From a virus (Duplodnaviria; Caudoviricetes): a stretch of DNA of 56,719 bases. The position numbers and the translations under genes are program-made. The notes below the pieces were generated by a model that saw only the letters and a program-made list of their open reading frames with translations, ran no database searches and was not told the origin of the DNA. Shown here piece after piece: positions 28,254-55,470 of the stretch. The DNA is taken from positions 1 to 56,719 of IMG/VR virus record IMGVR_UViG_3300028025_001269; one strand, 5' to 3'. Numbering within the stretch: position 1 is the stretch's first letter; every line of letters starts with the position of its first letter.

Positions 28254-30218
28254 TCACAGTTCCACAGGACCAGACTCAAAGAAGCTACCTACCCACTTAG
28301 CACCCTCATCCCATATTTTACCTCCAATTGAGGTGAGTGCTTTCAGAGCATCTGCAGGTAAGCTAGTTCCAGATATAATGCTTGCAGCAGACTTACCAAT
28401 AGCCATGGTGATCTCAGCATCTTTAGCCATAGTAGCAGCTAAGATAGTAGCGTTAGCAGCAATCTCTTGTTTAGCAATTGCATTGACACGCTCTTTGGCA
28501 CTCTCAGAAGACTTCCATGAATACTCAATCTCATCACGGAACTGCTGCCACATATTGTTATATTCTACCATGGTAATTTCCATAGCTTTGGTAGCATTAA
28601 ACTCATTAGCCCTGTTGATAGCTGCAGTGTTAGCAGTAGAAATCTCTCTACGCCACTGGGCATTTGACTGGTCAATCACAAGTCTATTCTGAGCATTGAA
28701 CTGATCACGCTGGTTCTGTACTTCTGAATTAAACTTAGCTACAGTATTTGCTTGGTCAGTATTAAACTGGGACATAGCATTGGTTTGTGTAGTATTAAAC
28801 TGTCCTACTTGGGTAGTCAGATTAGCAAAGAACTGGTCTGTCTGATTCTGACTGGAGGCATTGAACTGCTTAGCAGCATTAACAGCAGCTGTGTCTGTTA
28901 GGATAGACTGCACATTAGACTGGGCTTTAAAGATCTCAGTCTGCTGTTCATTAGCTAAGTTAGCCATATCCATCTGTAAGAAAGACTGAGCATTAACTAC
29001 AGCAGCTTGCTGACGGTTGTTAAGGTTAGCAGATTCTAAGTTAGCTATCTGTGCAGCATTAGCCATGACTAAAGCTTGACTGTTAGACAGATTAGCTAGA
29101 TCCATAGTCTGTGCCATACGAGCATTCTCTAATGCAATCTGTTGCTGTGCAGTAAAGTTTATGTTTGCTATATCCGATACCTTAGCTGCATTCATAACTC
29201 GAGTCTGGAAAGCCTGATCAAACTCTTGACCTAAGAACTGGGCACGTTGCTGAGCATTGAGGACAGCAACCTGCTGTCTGTTAGACAAGTTCTGTAATCC
29301 CATCTGTTGAAATACAGCAGCATCCTGAGCAGCGATAGGTGTAGCAGCTTCGAGGGTAGCTTGGATAATAGCTTGACCTGCTAAGCTAGAAGCACCTAAA
29401 CCACGAGCAGCCATCTGTGCAGTAGCGTTACGTAGTGAAGCAGCTGCCCATGGTGGAGGATTGCCTGTTTCAAAGTTAGCCATTAACTTCCCTAGCTGAC
29501 CTTGAACTGTCATGTCCTCTGTTACAACACCTTGAGCAGCTTCATTCTTAGCTAGTGTTTGTTCTACCTGTGTCATATCAACTGCAGGACCAGAGACTAT
29601 TTCACCTGCACCCAACTCACGGGTAGGTGCACCAGTTACTTGTGTAGCAGTTCCCTGTGCAGCTTTTAAGCTACTAACAGCAGTAGAGGTAGGCTCCATC
29701 TGTGCTGCTTGTACCTGTGCCTGAGGTGCTACTGTACCTTGTGCAGCCTCTACATTTTGAAGTGCAGCACTTACATCTGGGGCAGCAGTAGTTGCAGTCA
29801 TTGTAGCTGCGGGAGTAATAGTGGGGGCTGCAGCTGTAGCAGCTGTAACTGGAGCAGCACCTGTGACAGTAGCTGCCTGTGTAGGAGCTAACTCAGTAGC
29901 AAGTGTTTCATCTGCACTTGCAGTTTGAATTGCTGGGGCTACCTGTGCAGCCTTAGGTTGAATAGGGAAACCTGTGACAGGATCAACGGTGGCAGTACCC
30001 GCTTTTTGTGCAGTAGGTATTACATCTCCACCAACAGCATAGTTAGTAGCTCTAACCATACCACCCTTAGCCATGAACTTCTCCGTAATCAAACCATACT
30101 TCTGAGCATCAGCCGGAGTAGACTTGAGGTACTTATCAAACATATTCATAGGTCCTTCATAGCCCATCTTACGAGCTACAATCTCCCGTTGCTTTTCTGT
30201 GAATGTTTTATCTGCCAT
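28254..30218 (-). CDS. Internal virion / DNA-ejection protein (Ala/Gln/Asn-rich)
   Basis: Long A/Q/N heptad-like region; MAKGG and YAVGG motifs near the N-terminus. Confidence 0.65.
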   Translation of the reverse strand: MADKTFTEKQREIVARKMGYEGPMNMFDKYLKSTPADAQKYGLITEKFMAKGGMVRATNYAVGGDVIPTAQKAGTATVDPVTGFPIQPKAAQVAPAIQTASADETLATELAPTQAATVTGAAPVTAATAAAPTITPAATMTATTAAPDVSAALQNVEAAQGTVAPQAQVQAAQMEPTSTAVSSLKAAQGTATQVTGAPTRELGAGEIVSGPAVDMTQVEQTLAKNEAAQGVVTEDMTVQGQLGKLMANFETGNPPPWAAASLRNATAQMAARGLGASSLAGQAIIQATLEAATPIAAQDAAVFQQMGLQNLSNRQQVAVLNAQQRAQFLGQEFDQAFQTRVMNAAKVSDIANINFTAQQQIALENARMAQTMDLANLSNSQALVMANAAQIANLESANLNNRQQAAVVNAQSFLQMDMANLANEQQTEIFKAQSNVQSILTDTAAVNAAKQFNASSQNQTDQFFANLTTQVGQFNTTQTNAMSQFNTDQANTVAKFNSEVQNQRDQFNAQNRLVIDQSNAQWRREISTANTAAINRANEFNATKAMEITMVEYNNMWQQFRDEIEYSWKSSESAKERVNAIAKQEIAANATILAATMAKDAEITMAIGKSAASIISGTSLPADALKALTSIGGKIWDEGAKWVGSFFESGPVEL

Positions 30219-30230
30219 AATGTGAAAACC

Positions 30231-30665
30231 TTAAGAGAATATTCTAGTGCCAGCTTTGTCTATAATTAATGCTTGTTTACGTGGTGGTCTTGCAGCAGTG
30301 TCAGGAACGCTTATATGGGTCCATGAGCCGAATTCTTCTATGATCTGATCATACCCTATGTTCGATGCAATGACAGCCTCTACGACCTGTTTAGGGGTCA
30401 TGCCGGGGACACGGATGTCAGCAGCACACCCGATACGATGTTGGCTGGTGTCTTTCGATCCAACCGAATCATTCACAGCTTTAGACCTGAAACCTGAGTT
30501 TAACAGAATAGGCTTGTTAAGTAAAGATCTTACTTCTTCCAGTAGTGCAGCTAAACGAACTAGATTAGAAACCTCTAAAGCATTAGGGGTATTGTCTAAG
30601 TTCTTACGCTCAGCTACTTCCGAGTGGGTTAGTTCTTCAAGGGTAAAGTGTTCACTTAGCTGCAT
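30231..30665 (-). CDS. Endolysin, peptidase M15A family
   Basis: SGFR, SQH..G.AAD and WTHIS zinc-ligand motifs. Confidence 0.88.
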   Translation of the reverse strand: MQLSEHFTLEELTHSEVAERKNLDNTPNALEVSNLVRLAALLEEVRSLLNKPILLNSGFRSKAVNDSVGSKDTSQHRIGCAADIRVPGMTPKQVVEAVIASNIGYDQIIEEFGSWTHISVPDTAARPPRKQALIIDKAGTRIFS

Positions 30666-31065
30666 CTTTTTCCTTCGCTTTCATATCCATGATCTTCTCC
30701 AGAGTACGACCCCCGAAATAGAAGGACATAATTAACATGCCCCACTGACCTAGTAGTTCTACATAGGCTTTGTTTGTGTCTAAGTCAAATGCTGACATCA
30801 TGGCAAAGATGAAGTAGCCACCTAGGATAAACAATAAAGTCATAGGTCTAATGTTCTTAGATAACCAAGAATCACTAGACATGTCAGCTTGTAGTCTTGC
30901 AGTTAACTCATGCTGTTCTGCAGCATCTGCATTGATCTTAGCTAACTCACCATTCTGTTGCATCTCTAATAGTTTTAGCTTAGCCTGTTCTGCTTGAGCA
31001 GGATCAGGGAATACCTTGTCTAAGATTTTACCACCAATGTCTAGTAACGCACCTAATGGAAACAT
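30652..31065 (-). CDS. Holin (3TM gene-transfer-release type)
   Basis: SWLSKNIRP, two hydrophobic helices and YFGGRT.EK; adjacent to the endolysin. Confidence 0.75.
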   Translation of the reverse strand: MFPLGALLDIGGKILDKVFPDPAQAEQAKLKLLEMQQNGELAKINADAAEQHELTARLQADMSSDSWLSKNIRPMTLLFILGGYFIFAMMSAFDLDTNKAYVELLGQWGMLIMSFYFGGRTLEKIMDMKAKEKDAAK

Positions 31066-31521
31066 TTAAAAAGCTCCTAAAATAAATTTAAGCCACAGGG
31101 TTACAATCAATGCGGCAACAAAACAATAGAACTGCACCCGCCTCACTGCTGTTAAATCGTGTTGGAACTCTTCGTTGTTCTTGCGTTCCATGTTTTCTAT
31201 ATCCAACTTAATCTTAAGCAATGCATCCCACTCTTTGGCACCGTACTGCTTAACAAACTTAATCTTTAAATCAGCCTCTTCATCAGAGATTTGCTTCTTT
31301 CTTTTCCACTCGTTTAAAGCCTTGACTAAAGCTCGTTCTTTCCTGAGTTCTGCTTCACGGGCTGCTCGTACTCTTTCTTGTGCCCTTTGTTTGGCTACGT
31401 CTGTTGCATCTTGTTGTATGCTTTCAATCTGTTTAGAGACAGACTTACCTGCCTCACGAGCAGAGTCCAGCCCAGAACTAAGCCCCTTTACCCCTTCGGT
31501 TAAACCCAGTAAATCGGACAT
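31066..31521 (-). CDS. Coiled-coil protein with C-terminal membrane anchor
   Basis: Charged helical body and C-terminal hydrophobic helix; lies in the lysis cluster. Confidence 0.6.
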   Translation of the reverse strand: MSDLLGLTEGVKGLSSGLDSAREAGKSVSKQIESIQQDATDVAKQRAQERVRAAREAELRKERALVKALNEWKRKKQISDEEADLKIKFVKQYGAKEWDALLKIKLDIENMERKNNEEFQHDLTAVRRVQFYCFVAALIVTLWLKFILGAF

Positions 31522-31527
31522 AGGTTA

Positions 31528-32830: not shown

Positions 32831-32832
32831 AG

Positions 32833-34216: not shown

Positions 34217-34228
34217 TTTGTTTTCCTT

Positions 34229-37611: not shown

Positions 37612-39060
37612 TTATCCCAATGCGATTGCTAAACTGACTGCAGTACCTGCTGGATCAAAGTCTGTTGTATTTGCAGTAGCTGCTGTTCCTAAACCTAAAC
37701 TTGTTCGGGCTGTTGAACCAGACTCCAATACGAAGTTAGTACCGTTACCTACAATGAAACCATTGTCACTAGGTGTTAGTCCTGCAATGTCAGCTAACTG
37801 TGCATCGTAAGCCTGCACATCAGTACCGACAGTAAGACCTAAAGAAGTCTTTAAAGTAGCACCAGACTCCACTACGAAGTTAGTACCATTGCCGATGATA
37901 ACACCATTATCTGTAGGTGTCAATCCTGCAACATCAGCTAACTGGGCATCATAGGCTTGTACATCTGTGCCAATAGCTAGACCTAGGAAGGAACGAGCAG
38001 CGGATCCACCTGCACCTAAAGTAGTTAAGTCAGCATCATATGCCTGTACATCGGTACCGATTGCTAGACCTAAACTTGTTCTAGCTGTAGTTCCTGTCTC
38101 AACTACAAAGTTGCTGCCGTTACCAATAACGATACCATTGTCAGTAGGTGTCAAACCAGCAATGTCAGCTAACTGTGCATCATAAGCTTGTACGTCTGTG
38201 CCGATAACTAAACCTAAAGAAGTCCTAGCTGTAGCACCTGACTCGGTTACAAAGGTACTTCCGTTACCTACAATGATTGCATTGTCTGTTGGGGTAAGAC
38301 CAGATAGGGCAGCAAGTTCAGCATCATAAGCCTGTACGTCAGTGCCAATCACTAAACCTAAAGTTGTACGTGCTGTAGCTGCATCAGCATCATCTATTAA
38401 ACTACGACCAAAAGAAGTTAGGTCTGCTACTGCAGCAGTACCCGATCCAGTAAAGTAGGGGAGTTTATTAGCTGCAGAAGTTAAACCAGCTAAAGCTGCT
38501 AACTCAGCATCGTAGGCTTGAACATCAGTACCAATGGCTAAGCCAAGTGAAGTACGGGCAGTAGCCCCAGACTCAGCTACGAAGTTAGTACCATTACCAA
38601 TAATAACTGCATTGTCAGTGGGAGTTAAACCAGCAATGTCAGTGAGTTGTGCATCTAAAGGCTGCTTACCATCTAGCTGAGTTTGAATGGCAGAGGTAAC
38701 ACCATCAACAAAGTTTAGCTCAGTAGCTGTTGGAGTGAGGAGAGTACCATTTAAATCTAGGGCATCAATGTATGCAGTACCATCAATGTACAAATCTTTA
38801 TACTGAAATGTAGCAGAACCTAAGTCTACGGTATTCGTAGTCTTTGGGGTAGCACCGCCAGTTGTTACTACGATGTCTTGTGCAGGACCAATCTTAGTAA
38901 TTGGTGCACCTTCAGAATCAGTGCCGTCATGCGTATGCCCTGAAGCTTCATCAAATGCAACAGCAAGAGCATCAAACTCTAAATCTAAATCCGATGCATT
39001 GATAATATTACCGTCAGCAATATTGTTAACGGTATCAGCACGACTATAACCTGTAGACAT
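37612..39060 (-). CDS. Proximal tail fibre with tandem repeats
   Basis: N-terminal GHTHDG motif; six [16 protein letters not shown] repeats. Confidence 0.8.
37700..38660 (-). repeat. Tandem coding repeats of about 48 aa in the tail fibre
   Basis: GTDVQAYDA six times and LTP[TS]DN..I[IV]GNG five times; boundaries approximate. Confidence 0.85.
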
Positions 39061-44584: not shown

Positions 44585-45823
44585 TTAAGACTTCTTACCT
44601 GCCAGCCCCTTTCTGGTAGTTACTTTCTTTTCTACGTCTGGCTTACGTTTTGCCAGTAATGGTTGTTTGCTGTATTTTACCATGTTTGTACTGATTAGTC
44701 CACCCTCAGCTGCACCAATAGTTTCTACGGGTTCATAGCCGGAGGGGATAGGCTGTTGTGGTTTATCATCTTTGAAAGAGATTAAAGTACTTTGCCCCTC
44801 TGGGTTAGCATACTTACGAAGTTCAAACTTATCTGGCTGTACTTGAGTCAAGTTTAAACTGGTATCCGCTTCACCTTCAATTGTCTGATCCCCAAAACTT
44901 TTTCCCCGTCTACGGAAGGTTAAGAATCCCATTGGATCGCCTTCAGAAGTATTGCCACCATAAATGCTATTTAGAATACTGCCGCCAATAGCTTCTGTGA
45001 CTAGCTTCTTGCCTGTCTTTTCTATTATATTATCTCTAATAGGAGGAGGTGTATATATCTCTCCGGGTTGATAAGAGCCAGCAATGTTCTGTGCTACTGC
45101 CTTTTCTCCAATGCCTTGATTCGTCAAAGTAGAAATGTCTTGGGCTACGAAAGGATCCATACCCTCTTGAGTTAATACCTTTGCCATGTACTCATCACTA
45201 ACTCCACCGGGCTGTGCACGTAAGCTTTCTGCCTGTGCAGCAGCAAAGTCTGCATCTGCCTGAATAGAGGGGGGTGTGGCTTGCCCATAGCCCAATTCAC
45301 TGCGGACAGTGTTATACCCCTGATTTACGCCATACCCAACACCGCCCATGACACCACCAACAACACTGCCCTTTAAGACGGCTTCACCAATATCGTCTCC
45401 TCGAACAGCAGCTGTAGCACCAGAACTTCCACCACCCAAAACTGCACCCGTAGTAACTGCCCCAGTTATACCACCACCTGCCCACTCGTTAATGCCGGGT
45501 GCAAACTGAGAACCTGCATATGCAACACCAAAGGATAAAGCAATATCTTCGAGCTTTCCACCTTTAATAGCAGTGTTAGCTGCTGCAATATAGGGAAGTA
45601 AATAATACTGTTGAGTAGCAATAGCAGCAATAGTAGCAACACTACCAACAGGGTCTTTAGCCATAGGCTGAATTACATTCTTATCAATGGCTTCTCCTAC
45701 GTCTCCAATAGCAGGACCGGGGTCAATTTCAGCTAGTTGCTCACCTGCTGCTTCTGTCCAGTTGTCTGCTTTATCAATTGCATCATCAACAAAGCCAATA
45801 CCTGTTGGTCCACCACCACACAT
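44585..45823 (-). CDS. Gly/Ala-rich probable internal virion (pilot-like) protein
   Basis: MCGGG N-terminus, glycine-zipper hydrophobic segments and C-terminal AAEGG...KGL. Confidence 0.55.
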   Translation of the reverse strand: MCGGGPTGIGFVDDAIDKADNWTEAAGEQLAEIDPGPAIGDVGEAIDKNVIQPMAKDPVGSVATIAAIATQQYYLLPYIAAANTAIKGGKLEDIALSFGVAYAGSQFAPGINEWAGGGITGAVTTGAVLGGGSSGATAAVRGDDIGEAVLKGSVVGGVMGGVGYGVNQGYNTVRSELGYGQATPPSIQADADFAAAQAESLRAQPGGVSDEYMAKVLTQEGMDPFVAQDISTLTNQGIGEKAVAQNIAGSYQPGEIYTPPPIRDNIIEKTGKKLVTEAIGGSILNSIYGGNTSEGDPMGFLTFRRRGKSFGDQTIEGEADTSLNLTQVQPDKFELRKYANPEGQSTLISFKDDKPQQPIPSGYEPVETIGAAEGGLISTNMVKYSKQPLLAKRKPDVEKKVTTRKGLAGKKS

Positions 45824-45832: not shown

Positions 45833-46273
45833 TTAGAGTTTTTTCATGCTGTTAAATCCACCGATTTTATAGCCTTGGTGAATATAGAATTTCTTCATTT
45901 CTTCAATTTTGCCACCCACACTGTGACCCATAAAGATCTCAGATACGCCCTGCTCTTTAGCCCACTGCTCTACAGCTTGTAGTAACCTAAAAGCTTCTCT
46001 ACCTCCACGATACTCTGGAAGTATGTAGAATCCCACATCCGTTGCTCTTTCATAGTCAGAAAAAAAGAAAGAATCAATTACTGCACCAATAAAGCCAATA
46101 CAAACATCATCTCGATACGCTAAGAATGCTGCACCCCTAGGGTAGTTAAAGAGTTTCTGAATCTTAGCTTTACTGGGTTTAGCATAAGAGAAGACACTTT
46201 CTTCTACCATGCTTTCAATTAAACTAAAGAGCGTATCAAAGTGCTCTTGCTTAGCTCTAAGTATCTGTGTCAT
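45833..46273 (-). CDS. GNAT-family acyltransferase
   Basis: FYILPEYRGG (acyl-CoA-binding motif A) and FY...GY (motif B). Confidence 0.85.
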   Translation of the reverse strand: MTQILRAKQEHFDTLFSLIESMVEESVFSYAKPSKAKIQKLFNYPRGAAFLAYRDDVCIGFIGAVIDSFFFSDYERATDVGFYILPEYRGGREAFRLLQAVEQWAKEQGVSEIFMGHSVGGKIEEMKKFYIHQGYKIGGFNSMKKL

Positions 46274-46814
46274 TTAAGAAGGCTGCATCTTTTATTGTTA
46301 ATGAATCTTTTTTTATTGCATCCCCAAACTTTACTGTGGACAGATGATGATCTCCCATAACAATTCCAGAGTAATCAGCAGCTACGCAATGCGGCTCTAC
46401 CCCATTCAGCCAATGCTGAACGGACATGAATACACCACCTTCGGGTCCTGTCATAGCACCATGTACATCTGATGGTTTCACTCTCCATGAAACCCCACGC
46501 CTAATAGAAGTACCTATGTCTGTTGGAGTTGTTAGATCTTCTTCGCTTATAAGCCATTTACCTTGATGGCTAAACCTAACTTGACCACCAATGTATACTT
46601 CAAAAGAATCTACATTTGGGTGTGTATGTTCTGGAATAATCACGTTACCCGGAACTACAAACAGCTGTACTTGAAACTCTTTATCTCTGTACCATATAAC
46701 AGAAGTTATATCTTCAACCTTGTGTACAGACTTAAACAGAGGTACTGCACCAATGCCAGAAACATTTTTAAAAAACCAATTATAGAATTCTAAAAGTTTA
46801 TCTTTTTCTTCCAT
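46257..46814 (-). CDS. Cupin-fold protein
   Basis: IPEHTHPNVDSFE...G and V.P...HG metal-binding motifs. Confidence 0.7.
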   Translation of the reverse strand: MEEKDKLLEFYNWFFKNVSGIGAVPLFKSVHKVEDITSVIWYRDKEFQVQLFVVPGNVIIPEHTHPNVDSFEVYIGGQVRFSHQGKWLISEEDLTTPTDIGTSIRRGVSWRVKPSDVHGAMTGPEGGVFMSVQHWLNGVEPHCVAADYSGIVMGDHHLSTVKFGDAIKKDSLTIKDAAFLNDTDT

Positions 46815-46817: not shown

Positions 46818-48269
46818 TTATTCTAGGGTCAATGACCATCCTTGATTACCATTATCTTTAACGGGATATCCGCTTTTTATTAAGGCATCTACAAGTAGAG
46901 GATTACTTTTATCGGATTCAAACTTAGAAATACCTGCAGACTTAGCCGTATTCATATTAGCAACCACTGCACTTAATAGTTTCTCAGGGGCATCATTACT
47001 AAACACTATAGGATCTACAACACCCGGCTGTTTTACAAATCCAATTACAACGGTATCGTTATGACGAGTAATAATAGCACGATTAGCTTTAACTAATCTA
47101 TTGATCTTTGAAAGATACTGCTGTGTTTTTTCTGGATCTTCCGGCTGAAAGTTATTTTTAATAATGGCAGCAGAAGTCAATCCTTCTGTAGGCATACTCT
47201 GCTGTTCGGGAGAAACTTGCATTTGCTGTGCCTTCATTCCCGATGCAGTCTGTTGAATAAAAGCTAACTGTTCTTCAGTTAAAGTTGGCACTTGAGCTTG
47301 TTGTGGCTGCTGATCTTGTGCAAGAGCTTCTTGTGTCTGTGCCATAGCTGCAGGGTCTGTTGCCATACCACCTACAGCCATCTCTACATCTTCGTCCTTC
47401 TCTTCACCCATCTCACCCATGATCTCATCGATCTGAGATTCAAACTCACCTGTGTCTTCTTCCGTAGCTTCGTCAGCATTAGACATCTGACCCATGTCTT
47501 CCATCTTGCCAAGACCTTCCTTAGCAGCTTGACGCATCATCATTAAACGCTCAAGCCCAATAAAGCGTACTACGTCAGCTGGGAATACAAACTCACCTTC
47601 ACTTAACTGTGCAGGGATATCATCTCGTACTTCTTCTTGCATTGCACCGACAGGTACGTCATTCCCACTAACGGGATCAACTGTACCGCCCTCCTGCATC
47701 ATGCCGCCTTCTTTAAGCATACGTTGTGTTTGTGATATCACTTGTCCACCTTTAGCCATGTTTGTTGGCTCTTCTTTTGAAAAGCTTTGACGTAGTTTTT
47801 CTACGAACTGAGTTTGCTCTTCTGTTGGAGTGCCAGCACTAGGATCTCCAGATAAAATTCTAGCAGCTATAGTTGCTTTTCTATCTGCCTCTGAAGCTTG
47901 TTTATATGTGTTACTATTTAAAAACTCTGCCTGTGACGGGGTCAATTCAAAATTAGGTGCTAAACTTTTATCTGTTCTCATTTTAATTCTAGCAGCTTCA
48001 TTTAGAGCAACAGCTTGTTTTTCTTGGTCTGTTAATTTAGAATAGGGATTTAAGATGACTCGATTGTCCTCCGTTGCCATCCCTGTTACATTAGGATTAT
48101 TTTTAAAATACTCTAACTCACTGTCTTCTGGCTTACGCATAAGACCCTTAACAACATCACCACCTGCCCGAAAAGTAGGCAGCTTAATCACGGGAGAAGT
48201 AGACTGTTGATGTCCAATAGGCTCAGAGCTATCCAGTGTTACTTGCTGTGGTTCTATCTTATTCAACAT
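46818..48269 (-). CDS. Multi-module virion protein with DDIPA.LSEGEFV domain
   Basis: Five xxGG motifs and a DDIPAQLSEGEFVFPADVV core; lies between portal and scaffold. Confidence 0.6.
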   Translation of the reverse strand: MLNKIEPQQVTLDSSEPIGHQQSTSPVIKLPTFRAGGDVVKGLMRKPEDSELEYFKNNPNVTGMATEDNRVILNPYSKLTDQEKQAVALNEAARIKMRTDKSLAPNFELTPSQAEFLNSNTYKQASEADRKATIAARILSGDPSAGTPTEEQTQFVEKLRQSFSKEEPTNMAKGGQVISQTQRMLKEGGMMQEGGTVDPVSGNDVPVGAMQEEVRDDIPAQLSEGEFVFPADVVRFIGLERLMMMRQAAKEGLGKMEDMGQMSNADEATEEDTGEFESQIDEIMGEMGEEKDEDVEMAVGGMATDPAAMAQTQEALAQDQQPQQAQVPTLTEEQLAFIQQTASGMKAQQMQVSPEQQSMPTEGLTSAAIIKNNFQPEDPEKTQQYLSKINRLVKANRAIITRHNDTVVIGFVKQPGVVDPIVFSNDAPEKLLSAVVANMNTAKSAGISKFESDKSNPLLVDALIKSGYPVKDNGNQGWSLTLE

Positions 48270-48501: not shown

Positions 48502-50616
48502 TTACTGTGGCATTCCGGGTGGAGGGGCAGCTGGAGGTGTACCCTGTGGTGTTATGTTACCACTAAAGCCTTGCTCTCCGGGTACTGGTGCTGCACCCAC
48601 TCCGATATTGCCACCGCCACCACCTGTCATATCCTGAACACCGGGTACTCCGGGAACTCCACCTGCTGGTGCTGGAGGTGCAGGAGGTTGATTCTGTTGC
48701 AATAGAACCATCTGACGTGTAGCCTCATCTATATTGTTGGTTACCTTGTCTGGATCTAAATCCATTGACTTAGCAATCTCACGAATAATGTACGGGAACT
48801 TAGCGTAAGGAGCAAGAGCAGGATTACTTGCTACTTGCAAGAATTGCATTAGACGTTGACTGCGTACTTCATTTGCCATGAGGCTTTCTGTACCACGGGC
48901 TTTAACTTCTAAGTCACCCTTGATTTCTGCATCAAAGTCAAACTGCATATTAAAGCTAAAGAATGCCTCACCTAGTGGACGTAACAAGTAGTCATCTAAG
49001 TTCTTGATAACAGTCTTAACGCTACCAGAAGCAGCATTCATCAGCATGCTAATACCACTAGCAGTACGACCTACGCCTGATACGCCAGTCTGTCCATGCG
49101 AGAACGAAGGTAAGCCTGTAGACTCATCAGCTAAAATACGAGCTTTATCAAATAGCTGCAGGTTCTCATTGGATACGTTAGGGAACTTGGTACCGAAGAT
49201 AGCTTGACCGGGAGCACCACCCTGTCTACGGAATACTTTACCGGGATAGACTGACAGATCTTGACCGGGAGTCAAGTTAGTCTCATCGACCTCGAATACA
49301 AGGTTGCCAGATAGGACGGCATTATCTACCGCCATACGCATAAACCCGTTCATTAAAGTTTGTGTATCGTCCATGTTTTCTGCGATACCGATGCCAAATA
49401 GCGAGTATGGGTTTAATTCGTAGGGGACAGCGTAATACGGAATCCTAGCTGGCTTGAAAGGATTTAATACCATGCGGAGAATACGACCATTACAGTACCA
49501 GATGTTGGCTTGTAATTCATCGGCATTCTCTAACTCTTTAGGAATCGTAACTTCGTTTTGTTCTAACAGTTCACGCTCAACTGCACCCCAGAACTCAAGG
49601 ACCTCAAAGCGATCAATGCCTTGGTCAGTACGATAATCCATCAAGTCATCTTCCCAATACTTCTTGGTATACGACTCACCCTGTGCTACTACATCATCAA
49701 TAACTGTCTTGCGGAAGAAGGGACGCTTCTTGAGAGCACGAATCTGAGTACGGCTCATCTTGTGACGCTCGATTACATACTGTGCTTCATCCATGTTAAT
49801 TGCATCGGGATCAGCATAGAAGTTCCATACGCTAACATGAGATGTAGAAGGTACTGTCTTAATCAAGGGGCTGTACTCACCCTCGTTTGACCAGTTAGGA
49901 TATTCTTTATCAATAGCAAAAGGACCCTTCATGATACCTGTACCAAAAAGTGCCATCTCAAATGCTGTTGATCTTAGCTGCTTACTTGCATTCGATTCAT
50001 CTAGCTGATCATGGATCTTCTTCTCCATCTTCTTAGCAGCTACCATCGCTGGGCTAAAGGTAGCAGATCCGGGTGTTACACCGGGACCTTCATTTAGATT
50101 CTGAATACCAGAGAGTTCATCGGCTAGAGGACCTAGACGTTCTTGGAGTGTTGCAAAGGTAGCACCGGGAGGTAAGTCATTACCGTCACCTTTGTAACCA
50201 TAGGGAGAAAAATCAGGAATAGCTTCCTGTAACTTAGCTTCATTTGGATCAAAGCTAACATCTGCTGCTACGCCATCGGGTAATACGGTTGGGTCTACGC
50301 TGATAGGGAAACTGTTGTTTGAAAACAATACATCAACGATCTGACCATAAGCGGCTAGAGTCTTAGTCTTAGTAACTTTGATAAAGACACGGCTCTTCTC
50401 CGTTTCAGTGAACTGAACGTCAGGACCATAGATACCCCGATAGTTGCGATAGGCACGGAGCCATCTCTCTTCATCTATCCTGCGGGTTGTCTCTGCCTTG
50501 GTGTACTTTTCCATAAGCAACTGGACAATAGGACCAGTTACTTTATCTTCTGCATTGATGTTATCGACATCCCCTAAATTAATAGAGTCTGTTTCAATAA
50601 AATTTTTATCTATCAT
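48502..50616 (-). CDS. Portal protein
   Basis: 704 aa; W...Y.NYRG.Y, GTG..K, G.G..E and RTASG.SM motifs; Pro/Gln-rich tail; follows TerL. Confidence 0.9.
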   Translation of the reverse strand: MIDKNFIETDSINLGDVDNINAEDKVTGPIVQLLMEKYTKAETTRRIDEERWLRAYRNYRGIYGPDVQFTETEKSRVFIKVTKTKTLAAYGQIVDVLFSNNSFPISVDPTVLPDGVAADVSFDPNEAKLQEAIPDFSPYGYKGDGNDLPPGATFATLQERLGPLADELSGIQNLNEGPGVTPGSATFSPAMVAAKKMEKKIHDQLDESNASKQLRSTAFEMALFGTGIMKGPFAIDKEYPNWSNEGEYSPLIKTVPSTSHVSVWNFYADPDAINMDEAQYVIERHKMSRTQIRALKKRPFFRKTVIDDVVAQGESYTKKYWEDDLMDYRTDQGIDRFEVLEFWGAVERELLEQNEVTIPKELENADELQANIWYCNGRILRMVLNPFKPARIPYYAVPYELNPYSLFGIGIAENMDDTQTLMNGFMRMAVDNAVLSGNLVFEVDETNLTPGQDLSVYPGKVFRRQGGAPGQAIFGTKFPNVSNENLQLFDKARILADESTGLPSFSHGQTGVSGVGRTASGISMLMNAASGSVKTVIKNLDDYLLRPLGEAFFSFNMQFDFDAEIKGDLEVKARGTESLMANEVRSQRLMQFLQVASNPALAPYAKFPYIIREIAKSMDLDPDKVTNNIDEATRQMVLLQQNQPPAPPAPAGGVPGVPGVQDMTGGGGGNIGVGAAPVPGEQGFSGNITPQGTPPAAPPPGMPQ

Positions 50617-50625
50617 TCGTTACCT

Positions 50626-52221
50626 TTAGTATCCGAAAACATTGTCTGCAATTGCAGGACCACTACGTTGGCTCAGAGGATTATAATCGAATAGACTACT
50701 TCTAGGTCTACTCATTACTCCATATCGCAAAGAATCATATAAGTGATCCTCTGACTTGGTATCTATATCCTCTGGGTTATTTTTATCCAAAGGCAAGATG
50801 GGCAATTGTGCAATCAGGTTTGTGCAGTTACTAGTTATAACAAGTCTTGGCTCTTCTGTAAAGGGGTCAACCTGTAATCGTCTATGTATTTCATTCTTTC
50901 CTGCAATACGGCTACCTGCACTTCTATCTGCTGGTCTCCATCTGCAGCCAGATTGAATCATCTGCTCTGCTAATGAAGGACCTGTGTCTCCCCGCTTGTG
51001 CCAACATGAACTATCCAGTACACCGTAGCGAATAGTACCGTCATTCTTCTCTGCTTCTAGTACCATACCCGCTAAATCCTTGGCTAATACCTTACTTACG
51101 TACAGTTCACGGTACACAATTAGCTGTTCACTGGGGCTAACTGCGAACCAAACAACAGCAGAATAAGACCCATATCCGTAGTCACAAGCCCTGAATCTAG
51201 CCCAATCTCGGGGTATTTCAATAGGGTCAATGACGTGAATCTGCCTGTTAAACTCTGAAAATGCAGCACCTTCTGCTACATCCCAGTTACCTTCTAGCAA
51301 TTGCTTGCGTTGATGCTCGGGTAATGACAGCAACATGGTCTCATAGTCACCTTGTTGTGCCAAATAAGGGTTATCTATCAGCATAGCTGGGATAAACCTA
51401 CGCTTAAACAGGGGTTGTCCTGCCTTACTGTGCCCTGCAGGATACTCCAACCGCTTACCTGTCTCTACATCCGTAGCCCAATAGGACTTTCCCGGGGGTG
51501 ATGGGTCAATAAACATCTTTTTAACCCATGCATGACCCGGTCCACCGGGGTTAGTTGTAGCTCTCATGTAGATTGGCAGGTCTGGTGCTGTACTACGCAG
51601 ACGAGAACGCATGTAATTCCACGCAAATGGGGTAGACCACTGCGTTAACTCGTCAAAACCCACCCAACTAAAGGCTAAACCCTGATACCTGAGTACATCT
51701 TCGTCTCTATCGAGGTAAGAGAACCACAATCTAGCACCACTAGGGGCTACCCACTGCATCTTTCGCTCTGACCACTTGATACCCGGGTAGATCTTCGGGT
51801 ACATTTCCTGTGATTTCCAGATTAACTCTCTAAGTTCCTCAGTAGTATGACGCAAAAGAAGACCGCTAAAGGAAGGATGACCCATATATCTGAGAGGGTC
51901 AGCAAGCATGGCATAAGATTTACCTCCTCCGGCTGCTCCACCGTACAATACTTCCCGTTCTGGTGCTGCTAAGAAGTATGTCTGGGGTCCAGCATTGGGT
52001 TTAAAGATAATATTCTGTCCCTCAATGTTAGGAACATGCATCTCTTCATCGTCAATCTGTGATTCCGTGTTCGAGGTCAACATCTGCGATGATGTCTTTG
52101 GCTCGTTTGATTCCTTTGTTGCCAATTCTTTTTTCGTACTTCTCCGCTTCTTCAATGGCTTTTTTGTATTTGGTAGCCCAGCTTCGGAGAGTAGAAGCTT
52201 TTGTCTTGTTTCGCTGCTCAT
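50626..52221 (-). CDS. terL: Terminase large subunit (true start uncertain: 52221, 52083 or 52041)
   Basis: Walker A YGGAAGGGKS; Walker B GFDE; ATTNPGG; nuclease motifs DYG and DH.YD..RY. Confidence 0.93.
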   Translation of the reverse strand: MSSETRQKLLLSEAGLPNTKKPLKKRRSTKKELATKESNEPKTSSQMLTSNTESQIDDEEMHVPNIEGQNIIFKPNAGPQTYFLAAPEREVLYGGAAGGGKSYAMLADPLRYMGHPSFSGLLLRHTTEELRELIWKSQEMYPKIYPGIKWSERKMQWVAPSGARLWFSYLDRDEDVLRYQGLAFSWVGFDELTQWSTPFAWNYMRSRLRSTAPDLPIYMRATTNPGGPGHAWVKKMFIDPSPPGKSYWATDVETGKRLEYPAGHSKAGQPLFKRRFIPAMLIDNPYLAQQGDYETMLLSLPEHQRKQLLEGNWDVAEGAAFSEFNRQIHVIDPIEIPRDWARFRACDYGYGSYSAVVWFAVSPSEQLIVYRELYVSKVLAKDLAGMVLEAEKNDGTIRYGVLDSSCWHKRGDTGPSLAEQMIQSGCRWRPADRSAGSRIAGKNEIHRRLQVDPFTEEPRLVITSNCTNLIAQLPILPLDKNNPEDIDTKSEDHLYDSLRYGVMSRPRSSLFDYNPLSQRSGPAIADNVFGY

Positions 52222-52507: not shown

Positions 52508-52509
52508 AG

Positions 52510-53317: not shown

Positions 53318-53318
53318 G

Positions 53319-53675
53319 TTATTCTCGGTTAGCTGGATCAAAGAACTCTTCTACTGTGACTGTGGCATCCATAGTACTTGCAGCTTCTGGAGTAACTTTA
53401 AAACTATCACCTGCATTTAACACGAGATAACTTTGATCAAAGGTCAAATAGTTGTAAGCTGAAATTGTGTATCCTCCTACAATAGCATAGGTCGCATTAG
53501 CAGAAGCATCATACCAGTCTAACTGAACAGTCTTATTGCCAGACCCTTTGTTAGCTATAAATAGTAAAACTATCTTACAGGTATGATTTGCAGGACATGT
53601 GTAGATGGTATTCGTAGTACCTGCTACCAGATTAGTACCAAGACTACGTAACTTAGGTGGGATTGCAGTTGTCAT
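53319..53675 (-). CDS. Small beta-rich protein, paralog-like to 37276-37602
   Basis: IYTCP...N...LVL.AGD. Confidence 0.65.
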   Translation of the reverse strand: MTTAIPPKLRSLGTNLVAGTTNTIYTCPANHTCKIVLLFIANKGSGNKTVQLDWYDASANATYAIVGGYTISAYNYLTFDQSYLVLNAGDSFKVTPEAASTMDATVTVEEFFDPANRE

Positions 53676-54088
53676 TACTTCTTTTTCACTTTACGTGCTT
53701 CAGATAAGGCAATAGCAATAGCTTGCTTAGGATTCTTAACTACAGGACCACCCTTACCCGAGTGTAATCCCTTGTCCTTGAACTCACCCATAACCTTGCC
53801 TACCTTAGCTGTTTGCTTTTTAGTTAAACCACCTTCAGCTAACTTCTTAGTTTTTACTGGGGAGAATTTAGTTACACCTGCCTTAGCAGCTTTAGAACCT
53901 GACTTCTTAATCACAGAACCTCCTTTAGCCATAGCAGTCATAGCACCTGTACGCTTACGACTCATCTGACCTTCTATCTCTGCAATACGCCTAGCAATCC
54001 GAGGATCTTGTACAGATCTCCCGGACTGGGCATTACGTAAGGAAACTAATTCAGCCTTAAGTTGATTAATTTCAAGGTCTTCTGCCAT
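53675..54088 (-). CDS. Lys-rich protein with DUF6496-like C-terminal domain
   Basis: KV.KVM.EFK...LHSG....V.NPKQAIAIALSEA; MAKGG and LAEGG motifs. Confidence 0.7.
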   Translation of the reverse strand: MAEDLEINQLKAELVSLRNAQSGRSVQDPRIARRIAEIEGQMSRKRTGAMTAMAKGGSVIKKSGSKAAKAGVTKFSPVKTKKLAEGGLTKKQTAKVGKVMGEFKDKGLHSGKGGPVVKNPKQAIAIALSEARKVKKK

Positions 54089-54393
54089 TACTTCTTCTTA
54101 GCCTTAGGTACACCAATCATGATAGCCAGTATAGGTTTTTTAGAAGCAGAGCCACCTTTAGCCATCTTCTTAGCTAAACACTTACCTGCAGCCTTACACT
54201 TAGCTGGGGAAGGGCAAGCATCACAGGGTTTAAACTTCTTTACATCTCCACCCTTAGCCATCTTCTTTTCCTTCTCTTTTTCTTTCTCAGCTTTGGCTTT
54301 ATCCATACGCTCTTGAGCAGCCTTGTTCTGTTCTGGGGTACCTAAGATATTTTCTTTAAGGCGGGTAAGGGGGTTAGTCGCTTTAGATGCCAT
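54088..54393 (-). CDS. Lys-rich protein with a 4-Cys segment
   Basis: Two MAKGG motifs flank CDACPSPAKCKAAGKC. Confidence 0.7.
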   Translation of the reverse strand: MASKATNPLTRLKENILGTPEQNKAAQERMDKAKAEKEKEKEKKMAKGGDVKKFKPCDACPSPAKCKAAGKCLAKKMAKGGSASKKPILAIMIGVPKAKKK

Positions 54394-54395
54394 GA

Positions 54396-54575
54396 TTATT
54401 TTCCTAATTTTTTTAATGTCTTAGCTAAACGGGCACGTTGCCCAAGTTTACCGGGAGCTTTAGAAGCTTTAGCTAGTTCTTTAGCAGGGATTGTTTCACC
54501 CTCTTTAACCTTTAATGACCTACGTAAAGCACCGGGTTTCTTAATTGCTTCTTGAATCCAGTTCTTAGTAGCCAT
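54396..54575 (-). CDS. Small Lys-rich protein, 59 aa (not in the ORF track)
   Basis: MATKNWIQEAIKKPGALR...GKLGQRARLAKTLKKLGK; exactly fills the gap between genes. Confidence 0.75.
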   Translation of the reverse strand: MATKNWIQEAIKKPGALRRSLKVKEGETIPAKELAKASKAPGKLGQRARLAKTLKKLGK

Positions 54576-54577
54576 GA

Positions 54578-54976
54578 TTACTTCTTAGCCTTTTGAGCAG
54601 GTTTCATAGAAGCACCACAGTTAGCTTTAACCATGCCACCTTTAGCATATGCCATTGGCTTTTTAGCCATGCCACCTTTTTTTAATTCTAAAGACTTCTG
54701 TAATTCTTTCTTCTCTTTCTCAGTCAAAGGACCCTTCTTACCAGCTGGCTTCTCTTTACCCATAGCAGAAGCATAAGCCTCTTTATCAGCAGCAGCTTCT
54801 TCCTTCTTGGTCAGCTTCTTAGACTTCTCTACTTCCTTTTCTTTCATGAACTCTTTCTGAGCAGCCATAGTATCTTCATCGTAACCGGGACTACCTGCAG
54901 CTTTTTTAGCAGCTTCATCCATCTTCTTTACTTCTGCTTTAGAAAACATCTTACCTAAACGTGAGGAGAGTGACAT
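54578..54976 (-). CDS. Lys-rich protein
   Basis: LKKGG and YAKGG motifs; AAGGA RBS. Confidence 0.7.
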   Translation of the reverse strand: MSLSSRLGKMFSKAEVKKMDEAAKKAAGSPGYDEDTMAAQKEFMKEKEVEKSKKLTKKEEAAADKEAYASAMGKEKPAGKKGPLTEKEKKELQKSLELKKGGMAKKPMAYAKGGMVKANCGASMKPAQKAKK

Positions 54977-54999
54977 GATTTGATTCCTTTAGTTAAAAA

Positions 55000-55470
55000 T
55001 TATTTACCGTAAAACTTATTGAGTGGGTGACTACGTGAGGCAGTAGCAGGTGCCTTTGCTTTAGCTGGGGCTTTCTTCTTAGTTACCATACCGCCTTTAT
55101 TAAACTTAGGGGACTCTTCAGCAGCTTTCTCTTGCTTCTTAGTAGGAGTATTTGCGCTTACTTGTTTTTTCCACTGTCTATGATCTTCAGGAGTGATTGG
55201 CGGTTCTTTAACTGCATAGGGTCCACTTTCACGACCTGATTTAACATCTCTATTCATCTGTCTACGATCTAACTCGTCTGCTGCAGCCATAGCCCTTTTG
55301 CTTCTGCCTTTTGAAATATCACTAAGTTCTGCTTTAGATAACTTAGTCATTTCAATGGCATCCATCTCTTCTTTTACGTCAGCCTTAGTAAAGCCTTCAG
55401 GTATATCCTTCATCTGCTTTTTCATCCATGCTGCCATTTTGGTACTCACGCCCATCTTATTACTCCTCAA
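55000..55470 (-). CDS. Lys-rich protein
   Basis: FNKGG motif; the start may be ATG 55455. Confidence 0.7.
   Translation of the reverse strand: MRSNKMGVSTKMAAWMKKQMKDIPEGFTKADVKEEMDAIEMTKLSKAELSDISKGRSKRAMAAADELDRRQMNRDVKSGRESGPYAVKEPPITPEDHRQWKKQVSANTPTKKQEKAAEESPKFNKGGMVTKKKAPAKAKAPATASRSHPLNKFYGK

What the first reader, a model, noticed from the sequence alone, without database searches (positions are those of the whole stretch)
28254..55470. Hydrophobic-x-x-Gly-Gly motif repeated ~15 times across seven late proteins: candidate virion cargo-tagging or polyprotein-processing system
Seen: FNKGG (55000); LKKGG and YAKGG (54578); MAKGG twice (54088); MAKGG and LAEGG (53675); FRAGG, MAKGG, LKEGG, MQEGG and MAVGG (46818); AAEGG (44585); MAKGG and YAVGG (28254). 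The motif is usually followed by x-V/I/M/A. These proteins are otherwise unrelated, and the motifs sit at module boundaries: they flank a 4-Cys peptide, precede a DUF6496-like domain and bracket a zincin-like insert. Known: adenovirus protease cleaves (M/I/L)xGG-x in basic core proteins and the ASFV protease cleaves GG-x, and an [FY]AxGG...D.IPA.LS.GE.V segment occurs in many tape-measure proteins. Inference: the motif is a cleavage site or capsid-targeting tag that loads and matures a set of DNA-condensing and ejected proteins. The likely reader or protease is the DDIPAQLSEGEFV domain, encoded between portal and scaffold where prohead proteases usually lie.
Basis: partly seen in the sequence, partly recalled or inferred. 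Interest (0 to 1): 0.85.

Follow-up and report, generated by a model that had tools for sequence, protein, structure and literature searches.

The report
Gly-Gly peptide tag of phage ejection proteins
A short hydrophobic-x-x-Gly-Gly peptide that recurs in seven late proteins of this marine phage is real and conserved, and is the flanking element of an unnamed module otherwise found near the end of tape-measure proteins, so these are probably proteins injected with the DNA rather than substrates of a new protease.

Summary
The window is a near-complete HMO-2011-type marine podovirus genome. All 15 listed pentapeptides are at the stated places. A fixed pattern gives 15 hits against 1.35 in shuffles, and MAKGG occurs five times. 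The motif recurs at matching places in HMO-2011, CRP-1/-2/-3, a spring-water relative and pelagiphage HTVC115P. The DDIPAQLSEGEFV segment is the core of a conserved module of about 130 aa (2948 clusters in the 50%-identity library). The module is homologous to an unnamed segment of siphophage tape-measure proteins, including lambda gpH and JBD30 gp46, where the same Gly-Gly pentapeptide brackets the core. No Pfam, PHROG or PDB entry covers it. The core does not model as a globular domain, and no nucleophile stands out in the family members I compared, so the protease reading is not supported. No Gly-Gly-type or prohead protease is encoded. An early-region ClpP was not seen in the listed relatives. 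Best reading: the module and its stand-alone copies are docking or assembly peptides of virion-internal, ejected proteins (the post-portal protein, a 654-aa protein and small lysine-rich proteins). A processing-site reading stays open, because the published T5 tape-measure cut falls one residue before an A-E-G-G. No virion proteomics exist for this group, so function is inferred.

The parts
46818..48269 (-). 483-aa post-portal protein (w483): N-terminal domain, Gly-Gly/DDIPA module, C-terminal domain
   Evidence: ORF. No Pfam, PHROG or PDB sequence match. Only aa 171-302 is conserved in HMO-2011 gp49, CRP-1 gp49 and the MW202701 994-aa protein.
47364..47759 (-). Conserved module (aa 171-302): three upstream Gly-Gly motifs, the core, a helix pair, an acidic linker and a downstream Gly-Gly motif
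   Evidence: phmmer against 1.84 billion representatives gives 2948 clusters at E<=1e-3 and 613 at E<=1e-30. 40 columns are invariant in 23 sequences. In 150 family proteins the motif peaks at -50..-30 and +70..+90 relative to the core.
47586..47624 (-). DDIPAQLSEGEFV core (aa 216-228)
   Evidence: Coordinates. An HMM of tape-measure segments hits aa 216-258 with i-E 6e-12. The monomer model has low confidence.
48159..48173 (-). FRAGG motif, upstream bracket of the N-terminal domain of w483
44585..45823 (-). 412-aa Gly-rich protein (w412). It probably corresponds to the C-terminal part of the fused post-portal proteins of relatives. AAEGG lies at 44699-44713 in a basic C-terminal tail (44588-44725). 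A PIP-containing mini-module lies at 44723-44842.
   Evidence: The C-terminal tail resembles the ends of P0016, P0038, P0112 and P0150. aa 328-367 matches CRP-1 gp35 aa 360-399 at E 4e-8.
28254..30218 (-). 654-aa Q/N-rich protein (w654), orthologue of HMO-2011 gp25. Its conserved N-terminal segment (30021-30218) carries MAKGG (30060-30074) and YAVGG (30027-30041).
   Evidence: BLASTP gives 51% identity over 588 aa to HMO-2011 gp25 and 49% to CRP-1 gp35. The motif is at the same place in HMO-2011, MW202701 and CRP-1.
54578..54976 (-). 132-aa lysine-rich protein with LKKGG (54671-54685), YAKGG (54635-54649) and a C-terminal C-G-A-S
   Evidence: 244 homologues. In 15 aligned members the conserved N-terminal 95 aa are followed by 2 to 4 tandem Gly-Gly units and an invariant CGAS.
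54088..54393 (-). 101-aa lysine-rich protein. Two MAKGG (54247-54261, 54151-54165) flank a 4-Cys peptide (54166-54243).
   Evidence: Near-identical arrangements occur in IMG/VR loci L019, L023 and L024.
53675..54088 (-). 137-aa basic protein with MAKGG (53918-53932), LAEGG (53828-53842) and a DUF6496 domain (53687-53821)
   Evidence: Pfam DUF6496 at E 3.3e-8, aa 90-134. Coordinates.
55000..55470 (-). 156-aa basic protein (TTG start uncertain) with FNKGG (55090-55104) in a lysine-rich tail

Best explanation
What it is (well supported). The pentapeptide hydrophobic-A/x-x-G-G, usually followed by hydrophobic-V, is the bracketing element of an uncurated module. The module's core is D-x-I-P-A-x-L-S-x-G-E-F-V followed by a helix pair. 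The module sits near the C-terminus of siphophage tape-measure proteins (lambda gpH, JBD30 gp46, many actinophage and Pseudomonas phages). In HMO-2011-type podoviruses, which have no tape measure, it sits in the multidomain protein encoded just after the portal. In this phage that protein is split into a 483-aa and a 412-aa gene.

What is special here. Extra stand-alone copies of the bracket peptide occur, often in pairs or tandem arrays, in a 654-aa Q/N-rich protein and in four small lysine-rich proteins encoded upstream of the terminase.

How it most likely works (inferred). The carriers are virion-internal proteins that leave with the DNA. The Gly-Gly peptide is a short docking or assembly signal, a turn flanked by hydrophobic residues, used in several copies for avidity. 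It fastens these largely unfolded proteins to a common partner in the DNA conduit (the portal-tail lumen, or the module core of the post-portal protein), much as the C-terminal part of a tape measure is held in the tail tip.

The DDIPA segment is part of this unit and is not a separate protease.

The confidence given is for the mechanistic reading; the identification of the module is much firmer.
For: - Identity of the phage and gene order: portal 72-75% identical to CRP-1 and HMO-2011; order TerL, portal, 79 aa, w483..., coat.
- Enrichment and conservation of the motif.
- Module family: 2948 clusters; the module lies at variable positions in proteins of 130-1594 aa. Of the 8 large members scanned, 3 have Pfam hits over the cut-off: Phage_lysozyme2+LysM, HNH and DUF4214; LPD23 is below it. 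That resembles tape measures with embedded lytic domains.
- Homology to tape-measure proteins: 1261 records; PDB 8rk3 and 8zdo chains carry the segment; HMM i-E 6e-12 for w483, 2e-7 for lambda gpH aa 728-782.
- Bracket architecture in 11 hand-picked tape-measure-type proteins: upstream motif in 10 of 11, downstream in 9 of 11; the core lies 91-112 aa from the C-end in 6 complete tape measures.
- Points favouring a tag over a cut site: 63 of 390 motif hits in 150 family proteins lie within 30 aa of the C-terminus (some of those proteins are fragments). The copy number of tandem units varies from 2 to 4 within one small-protein family. Each separate polypeptide carries its own copy.
- Association at the level of the whole system: in 13 of 26 IMG/VR loci with at least 8 kb upstream of the module, a small basic ORF carries the strict motif (shuffle mean 3.0, maximum 9 of 500). 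23 of 282 small ORFs carry it, against 3.25 in shuffles.
- Against an enzyme: low-confidence non-globular model, and no Pfam match even at E<=10.
Against: - No virion proteomics or structure exists for any HMO-2011-type phage in the papers I searched, so presence in the virion is inferred from gene position and homology only.
- The module is not resolved in the published lambda, JBD30 or T5 tail maps: lambda about 690-817 unresolved; JBD30 only the last 33 residues built (passages). That argues against rigid symmetric docking, at least in siphophages.
- In lambda the motif occurs only twice in all six frames, both times in gpH, so the dispersed-tag use is not general.
- The published T5 pb2 cut lies directly before an A-E-G-G, which favours the rival processing reading.
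- The pattern was defined after seeing the data.
- The 13 of 26 loci without a strict hit carry only variant forms or nothing.
Confidence: 0.45

Rival explanations
1. Processing site. The motif marks points where the multidomain ejection protein, the tape measures and the small proteins are cut. The cut falls just before A-x-G-G or after G-G, and the protease is a host one or is unknown. Lytic or basic fragments would be released.
For: - T5 pb2 is cut after R1127 (Linares 2023, passages). In the T5 record the next residues are A-E-G-G-M-M.
- Lambda gpH loses about 14 kDa from a Gly-rich region. Its site and catalyst are stated to be unknown (Sci Adv 2025, passages). A cut at the upstream F-A-T-G-G would give 79.8 + 12.5 kDa, against the reported ~78 + ~14 kDa.
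- Motifs lie at domain boundaries, and in 3 of the 8 sampled tape measures I read an NlpC/P60-like or other lytic-looking domain after the downstream motif (by eye; weak Pfam NLPC_P60 for one).
- Stand-alone module proteins start M-A-K/L/R at about the motif position.
Against: - The T5 segment is not detected by the module HMM, and its P1 is Arg rather than a hydrophobic residue.
- For lambda, 710 fits the reported sizes better than 733.
- Many copies lie within 30 aa of a C-terminus or in 11-12-aa tandem arrays, where cutting would give tiny peptides.
- No suitable phage protease is encoded. ClpP is not among the 15 listed matches of 178, and none of the 14 HMO-type isolates appears there.
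- Spacing differs from recalled adenain, ubiquitin-like and C39 sites.
Confidence: 0.25
2. The DDIPA..GEFV core is the reader or protease that recognises MAKGGxV peptides in trans and loads or matures cargo.
For: - Core and motif always co-occur in one unit.
- Genomes with the core often encode small motif-bearing proteins.
- The catalyst of tape-measure cleavage next to this unit is unknown.
Against: - No globular fold.
- No nucleophile shared between the HMO-type, tape-measure and lambda versions in the sequences inspected.
- In lambda there is no trans substrate at all.
- In the monomer model the motifs in cis do not pack on the core: residues 1-30 have pLDDT 43-48.
Confidence: 0.08
3. Packaged polycations with a structural turn. 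The small proteins are disordered lysine-rich DNA counter-ions. The Gly-Gly unit is only a favoured hinge or turn of a tandem repeat, with no dedicated partner, and its likeness to the tape-measure bracket is convergent.
For: - Carriers have 23-30% K+R; one of the 23 has 16%.
- Some relatives have four tandem K-K-M-M-G-G-G-M-A-K units in a 69- to 73-aa protein.
- Flanks differ between basic stand-alone copies and acidic in-module copies.
Against: - Within-protein shuffles keep composition and give 3.25 against 23 observed, and 1.35 against 15.
- The same hydrophobic positions at -3 and +1/+2 recur in non-basic proteins and in tape measures of unrelated hosts.
Confidence: 0.15
4. Post-ejection role. 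The module and motif act in the host envelope after ejection (membrane insertion, channel formation or cell-wall contact) and not in assembly.
For: - The unit is unresolved in virions.
- It adjoins lysozyme, LysM and NlpC/P60-like domains.
- It is shared by phages of Gram-positive and Gram-negative hosts, which points to a universal target.
- The T5 C-fragment beginning at the motif is reported as muralytic (passage citing Boulanger 2008).
Against: - Lambda virions are stated to have no such enzyme.
- This gives no explanation for the copies in small basic proteins.
Confidence: 0.12

Closest known systems
C-terminal region of siphophage tape-measure proteins (lambda gpH aa ~730-785, JBD30 gp46 aa ~1019-1085, many actinophage TMPs)
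   Same: Homologous core (HMM i-E 6e-12). Same bracket of hydrophobic-A-x-G-G motifs. Often followed or accompanied by lytic domains. Belongs to a protein that is ejected ahead of the DNA.
   Different: Here it lies in a podovirus, in the gene after the portal, at variable positions in the protein. It has three upstream motif copies and an acidic linker. Further stand-alone copies occur in other proteins, whereas lambda has none outside gpH.
Adenovirus adenain and ASFV pS273R Gly-Gly-X polyprotein processing (recalled)
   Same: Gly-Gly preceded by a hydrophobic residue, in basic core-like proteins of a dsDNA virus.
   Different: The hydrophobic residue is one position further away (P5). No clan CE protease is encoded (and the Pfam scans). 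Many copies are at extreme C-termini or in tandem arrays.
T4 capsid-targeting sequence of internal proteins, with gp21 prohead protease (recalled)
   Same: A short peptide shared by otherwise unrelated internal proteins, which would direct them into the particle.
   Different: The T4 signal is N-terminal, single-copy and removed by a dedicated prohead protease. Here the copies are internal or C-terminal and often multiple, and no prohead protease gene is found.
Large polyvalent proteins of phages and conjugative elements (Iyer et al. 2017, PMC5512222; search listing and start of abstract only)
   Same: Relatives are 700-1600-aa mosaics of lysozyme, LysM and HNH domains (Pfam) and, read by eye only, H-E-x-x-H segments, joined by linkers. 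There is a weak LPD23 hit.
   Different: The constant element here is the Gly-Gly/DDIPA module, which no Pfam LPD or other model detected in the members scanned. The window's own copy is short and split, and shows no enzyme domain.
Post-portal minor head proteins (SPP1 gp7 / Mu F type; recalled)
   Same: Gene directly downstream of the portal; expected to be carried in the head and released with the DNA.
   Different: No Phage_Mu_F match at E<=0.01.

Membership tests
Tape-measure C-terminal Gly-Gly/D-x-I-P-A...G-E-F-V module (unnamed) | Core segment with the ...L-S-x-G-E-F-V hairpin followed by a helix | tested here: met
   An HMM built from 9 tape-measure segments hits w483 aa 216-258 at i-E 6e-12 (Z=1). 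Lambda gpH aa 728-782 scores 2e-7. tblastn of the HTVC115P variant finds 1261 records, mostly tape-measure genes.
Tape-measure C-terminal Gly-Gly/D-x-I-P-A...G-E-F-V module (unnamed) | Core bracketed by hydrophobic-A-x-G-G motifs | tested here: met
   10 of 11 upstream and 9 of 11 downstream in tape-measure-type proteins. In 150 HMO-type family proteins the motif peaks at -50..-30 and +70..+90.
Tape-measure C-terminal Gly-Gly/D-x-I-P-A...G-E-F-V module (unnamed) | Host protein is a tail tape measure, with the module about 90-110 aa from its C-terminus | tested here: not met
   Podovirus gene order, with the carrier encoded after the portal. The module lies at aa 171-302 of 483, and anywhere in relatives of 130-1594 aa.
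Adenain / pS273R-type Gly-Gly-X processing | Virus-encoded clan CE cysteine protease | tested here: not met
   PF00770 search of the whole genome gave 0 matches at E<=1.
Adenain / pS273R-type Gly-Gly-X processing | Site (M/I/L)-x-G-G-x with the hydrophobic residue at P4 (recalled consensus) | tested here: not met
   In all 15 window sites and in 60 distal family sites, the hydrophobic residue is three residues before the first G, which is P5.
Adenain / pS273R-type Gly-Gly-X processing | Cleavage products in virions | not testable with these tools
   No proteomics found for this phage group.
T4-type capsid-targeting sequence system | N-terminal single-copy signal plus a prohead protease gene in the head module | tested here: not met
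   Motif positions range from 0.07 to 0.83 of protein length, often in pairs. No S77, S78 or S49 protease was found. ClpP lies in the early module and is not among the 15 listed matches of 178.
Mu F / SPP1 gp7 minor head protein | Phage_Mu_F domain | tested here: not met
   No Pfam family for w483 at E<=0.01, and none for the module at E<=10.
Large polyvalent proteins | Several effector or enzymatic domains in one virion-delivered polypeptide | tested here: inconclusive
   Relatives have Phage_lysozyme2+LysM, HNH and DUF4214, plus LPD23 below its cut-off. The window's w483 and w412 show no enzyme domain.

The most novel reading that the evidence does not exclude
The hydrophobic-A-x-G-G peptide and the adjacent hairpin-helix core form a self-contained code for ejected phage proteins. 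The core reads the peptide, in cis in tape measures and in trans in HMO-2011-type podoviruses, and either docks it or cuts it. This would account for the so-far unknown site and catalyst of lambda gpH and T5 pb2 maturation. It would also define a cargo-loading system for small DNA-associated proteins in one of the most abundant marine phage groups.
Probability: 0.12. Interest if true: 0.85.

Novelty: new variant of a known kind. Interest (0 to 1): 0.6.

Why it matters
- HMO-2011-type phages are described in the literature I searched as a dominant marine viral group (abstract of PMC9038755), yet their internal proteins are unannotated.
- This work assigns the post-portal protein, the gp25-like protein and a set of small basic proteins to one peptide-marked set, and ties them by homology to tape-measure proteins. 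That bridges podovirus ejection proteins and siphovirus tape measures.
- It defines a very common module that the Pfam copy used here does not cover: 2948 clusters at 50% identity plus over 1200 phage records.
- It gives testable predictions for an old open point. The lambda gpH cleavage site and its catalyst are stated to be unknown, and the bracket motif at residue 733 is a candidate.
- If the stand-alone copies are loading tags, they could be used to direct proteins into phage particles.

Tried and rejected
- Complex prediction of the module core (aa 28-105 of P0001, alignment A1) with the Gly-Gly tail of the 132-aa protein (aa 85-132, alignment A4): no verdict, score 0.00 in both runs, controls not run. 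It counts neither way.
- AlphaFold2 monomer of the module: low confidence. I therefore ran no fold search, since matches would be meaningless.
- PDB sequence searches: none at E<=10 for w483. For w654 only a chance PsaQ hit. For profile A1 only chance L31 hits at E about 1.
- Pfam and PHROGs: nothing for w483, w412, w654 or three of the small proteins.
- Atlas leads (crAss cargo protein 1 at 0.82; P22 gp7 at 0.78) are under the 0.9 mark and were not confirmed by Pfam at E<=10.
- DNA-level repeat or recombination linker: rejected, because codons vary synonymously.
- ClpP (19088-19675) as the cognate protease: rejected. It lies in the early module, and none of the 14 HMO-type isolates is among the 15 listed matches of 178.
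- Internal translation starts at M-A-K: rejected, because the first position is mostly F in the family (33 of 60 distal sites).
- Homology of the T5 pb2 C-fragment to the module: not detected by the HMM. The likeness is by eye only.
- Late-against-early contrast conditioned on GG count: not significant.
- 'Zincin-like insert': not supported.
- Literature:
  - No hit for the pentapeptides as words.
  - No mention of the motif in the HMO-2011-type papers, searched by terms only.
  - The TM4 tape-measure motifs 1-3 are different enzymatic domains.
  - Searches for tape-measure cleavage or autoproteolysis added only the lambda paper.
- Supplementary files were not read. The T5 cleavage mapping (fig. 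S5G, table S3) and the JBD30 hook prediction (Appendix Fig. S8) rest on main-text passages.

Full report
**Identity of the window.** The window is the whole of an IMG/VR virus record of 56,719 bases, estimated 97% complete. Early and replication genes lie on the plus strand up to about 22.9 kb. Late genes lie on the minus strand from 56,073 down to 22,882. The portal (48502-50616) is 72-75% identical to those of Roseobacter phage CRP-1 and Puniceispirillum phage HMO-2011, and about 51% identical to pelagiphage HTVC115P. It matches Pfam SU10_portal. The late gene order, reading down the minus strand, is:
- small basic proteins
- TerS-like 125 aa
- TerL (50626-52221)
- portal
- 79 aa
- the 483-aa protein (w483)
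- a cupin-like gene
- a GNAT gene
- the 412-aa protein (w412)
- a 290-aa protein
- the coat protein
- adaptor and tail genes
- an M15 endolysin and a holin
- the 654-aa protein (w654)
- four further proteins up to 1113 aa.

**The observation.**
- MAKGG occurs five times. A 5-mer count that high was reached in 2 of 1000 shuffles.
- The only other 5-mers as frequent come from a 48-aa repeat in one tail-fibre gene.
- The loose form of the pattern is barely enriched (51 against 38.4).
- The pattern is post hoc, so the independent tests count for more. With the same pattern, four relatives give 16 hits in late-strand genes and 0 in early-strand genes. Pooled with the window, the per-residue binomial p is 1.4e-4. 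The contrast is not significant when conditioned on the number of GG dipeptides.
- Codons at the sites differ synonymously, so the peptide is selected, not a DNA repeat.

**Conservation in relatives.** The motif recurs at corresponding places.
- It is near residue 50 of the w654 orthologues: HMO-2011 gp25, the MW202701 863-aa protein, and the junction of the N-terminal extension in CRP-1 gp35.
- It is in the post-portal proteins.
- It is in small basic proteins upstream of the terminase in HMO-2011, CRP-1, CRP-2 and MW202701.
- The 132-aa protein belongs to a family with 244 matches at E<=0.001. In 15 aligned members a conserved N-terminal 95 aa is followed by two to four tandem Gly-Gly units and an invariant C-G-A-S.
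- I fetched 80 IMG/VR loci that encode the module. Only 26 had at least 8 kb upstream, and the other 54 were not examined. In 13 of those 26, at least one small upstream ORF carries the strict motif (shuffle mean 3.0, maximum 9 in 500). 23 of 282 small ORFs carry it, against 3.25 in shuffles. Of those 23, 22 have 23-30% Lys+Arg. Several of the remaining loci carry variant tandem units.

**What the DDIPA segment is.** Only aa 171-302 of w483 is shared with the post-portal proteins of relatives. In HMO-2011 gp49 and CRP-1 gp49 it sits at the very N-terminus. In the MW202701 994-aa protein and CRP-3 gp36 it sits deep inside.
- phmmer of aa 165-310 against 1.84 billion representatives gave 2948 clusters at E<=1e-3 and 613 at E<=1e-30. 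The match lies at any position in proteins of 130 to 1594 aa.
- In an alignment of 23 short members, 40 columns are invariant.
- In the 150 best proteins, a slightly widened pattern gives 390 motif hits against 23.8 +/- 4.9 in shuffles that used the same widened pattern. The hits cluster 30-50 residues before the core and 70-90 after it. 63 lie within 30 residues of a C-terminus; some of these proteins are fragments.
- I scanned 8 large members against Pfam. They carry Phage_lysozyme2+LysM, HNH and DUF4214 over the cut-off, a below-cut-off LPD23, and one below-cut-off Phage_L5_gp82. Three had no hit.
- Several end in a basic tail with a last Gly-Gly unit that resembles the end of w412. w412 aa 328-367 also matches CRP-1 gp35. 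I therefore read w483 plus w412 as a split form of the fused protein, with the cupin-like and GNAT genes lying between the halves.

**The tape-measure link.** In pelagiphage HTVC115P the post-portal protein gp72 carries a variant of the core preceded by a G-P-G-T-G-T-S-D-S loop, and ends in a MAKGG unit.
- tblastn of that 101-aa piece against 50,697 phage records found 1261 records. In the 60 rows listed, the match lies almost always under a tape-measure annotation. By organism: Mycobacterium 452, Gordonia 341, Pseudomonas 170, Vibrio 92.
- Two solved entries contain chains with the segment: 8rk3 (JBD30 tape measure) and 8zdo (a tape measure gp16 with two copies).
- An HMM from 9 such segments scores w483 aa 216-258 at i-E 6e-12 and lambda gpH aa 728-782 at 2e-7. 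One of the ten candidates, Mollymur, was dropped because my extraction pattern missed it.
- I chose 11 tape-measure-type proteins for diversity: 8 from the spread list, plus MP42, HTVC115P gp72 and lambda gpH. A hydrophobic-A-x-G-G unit lies 18-31 residues before the core in 10 of them, and 16-42 residues after it in 9.
- In the six complete tape measures the core lies 91-112 residues from the C-terminus.
- Pfam does not cover the unit. In lambda gpH the matches are aa 54-256 and 627-701 only. The window module has no match even at E<=10.

**What is published about that region** (main-text passages only; supplements not seen).
- In JBD30 only the last 33 residues of the tape measure are built. 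[quoted passage not shown] The authors propose that it holds the protein in the baseplate after cleavage.
- In T5, pb2 is cut after R1127 and the C-fragment stays in the tail tip. In the T5 record, residues 1128-1133 read A-E-G-G-M-M. The numbering checks out, because T1085 is the first built residue in both.
- For lambda, a fragment of about 14 kDa from a Gly-rich region is removed. Residues about 690-817 are unresolved. [quoted passage not shown] A cut at the upstream bracket (after 733) would give 79.8 + 12.5 kDa. A cut after 710 would give 77.7 + 14.6 kDa.

**Protease question.**
- Peptidase_C5 has no match in six frames.
- The ClpP query matched 178 phage records. None of the 15 listed is an HMO-type isolate; the listed hits are mostly jumbo phages. 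It therefore does not look like the partner of a motif conserved throughout the group.
- The module itself models poorly (pLDDT 59.9, pTM 0.26; coil, a helix pair at residues 67-94, no sheet).
- In the sequences I inspected from the HMO-type, tape-measure and lambda versions, the shared positions are the glycines, the Glu of G-E-F and hydrophobic residues. No joint alignment was made. This does not look like an enzyme.

**Weighing tag against cut site.**
- For a docking or assembly tag:
  - every separate polypeptide has its own copy;
  - copies are often paired or tandem, with variable number;
  - many sit at extreme C-termini;
  - the homologous region of tape measures belongs to the end that is held in the tail tip.
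- For a cut site:
  - the T5 coincidence;
  - the location at domain boundaries, including before lytic-looking domains that I read by eye in three sampled tape measures;
  - the lambda fragment size, which fits only roughly.
- Against rigid docking: the region is invisible in three tail structures.
- Against a cut site: T5 is not detected by the HMM and has Arg at P1; tandem arrays would be chopped into 11-12-residue peptides; and no protease is at hand.
- In lambda the motif occurs nowhere outside gpH in any frame. The dispersed stand-alone use is therefore a feature of the HMO-2011-type lineage and HTVC115P, not of the module in general.
- I rate the tag reading at about 0.45 and processing at about 0.25.

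**Limits.**
- No virion proteomics or structure for this phage group turned up in my searches.
- The complex prediction gave no verdict.
- The patterns were set after seeing the data.
- The tape-measure sample was hand-picked.
- Adenain, ubiquitin-like and C39 site rules, the T4 targeting sequence, SPP1 gp7 and the JAB domain of lambda gpK are recalled, not checked here.

Noticed in passing
window 19088-19675 (+): A full-length ClpP homologue (Pfam CLP_protease, E 1.3e-27) lies in the early/replication module. The query matched 178 phage records; the 15 listed are mostly jumbo phages and include no HMO-2011-type isolate.
   Followed up: partly
window 46257-46814 (-) and 45833-46273 (-): A cupin-like gene has a weak PCO_ADO match (E 1.4e-4, below cut-off; by recall, that family oxidises N-terminal cysteine). 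A GNAT acetyltransferase gene sits beside it. Both lie between the two halves of the split post-portal protein. The downstream half, w412, begins M-C-G-G-G, so it would expose an N-terminal Cys after Met removal.
   Followed up: no
window 44723-44842 (-); CRP-1 gp35 (L002), HMO-2011 gp49 (L001), P0016, P0061: A second mini-module of about 35 aa, ending ...P-I-P-x-G-F/Y-x-P, recurs 50-100 residues after the DDIPA module in fused relatives, in w412, and in the N-terminal extension of CRP-1 gp35 (BLASTP E 4e-8).
   Followed up: partly
window 37612-39060 (-): A tail-fibre-like protein has six copies of a ~48-aa repeat containing G-T-D-V-Q-A-Y-D-A. This is the source of the only 5-mers in the proteome more frequent than MAKGG.
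   Followed up: partly
L004 47095-47448 (CRP-2 117-aa protein); L005 33103-36981 (CRP-3 gp36): DnaJ-type C-x-x-C-x-G-x-G zinc-finger pairs occur in a small Gly-Gly protein of CRP-2 and at the C-end of the CRP-3 post-portal protein. They echo the DnaJ-like insert reported in the DNA polymerases of this phage group.
   Followed up: no
L001 (HMO-2011 gp49 and gp25 C-termini); P0104, MW202701 994-aa protein (L003): Several post-portal and gp25-like proteins of relatives end in a Cys-containing hydrophobic segment (C-T-E-L/M-Y..., C-W-V-A-R-E-V-Y..., C-F-L-T-T-A-A-V...). The window's w483 and w654 lack it.
   Followed up: no
window 9915-10910 (+) and early region: The genome encodes a tyrosine integrase (E 6.5e-15). 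One of the 42 early ORFs scanned has a Sigma70_r4 match (E 2e-5); I did not identify which ORF.
   Followed up: no
L029 and L035 (IMG/VR loci), upstream of the module: Large upstream ORFs in these two loci carry 7 and 6 strict Gly-Gly motifs respectively, while their small ORFs carry none. This may be another arrangement of the same set.
   Followed up: no
L014 (Gordonia phage Mollymur), L015 (Mycobacterium phage Reptar3000), L017 (Rhodococcus phage Braxoaddie): In these tape measures the downstream Gly-Gly bracket is followed directly by what I read as a cell-wall hydrolase-like domain. The NlpC/P60-type reading rests on a weak Pfam hit for Mollymur only and is by eye for the others. The arrangement resembles the one at the T5 cut.
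   Followed up: partly
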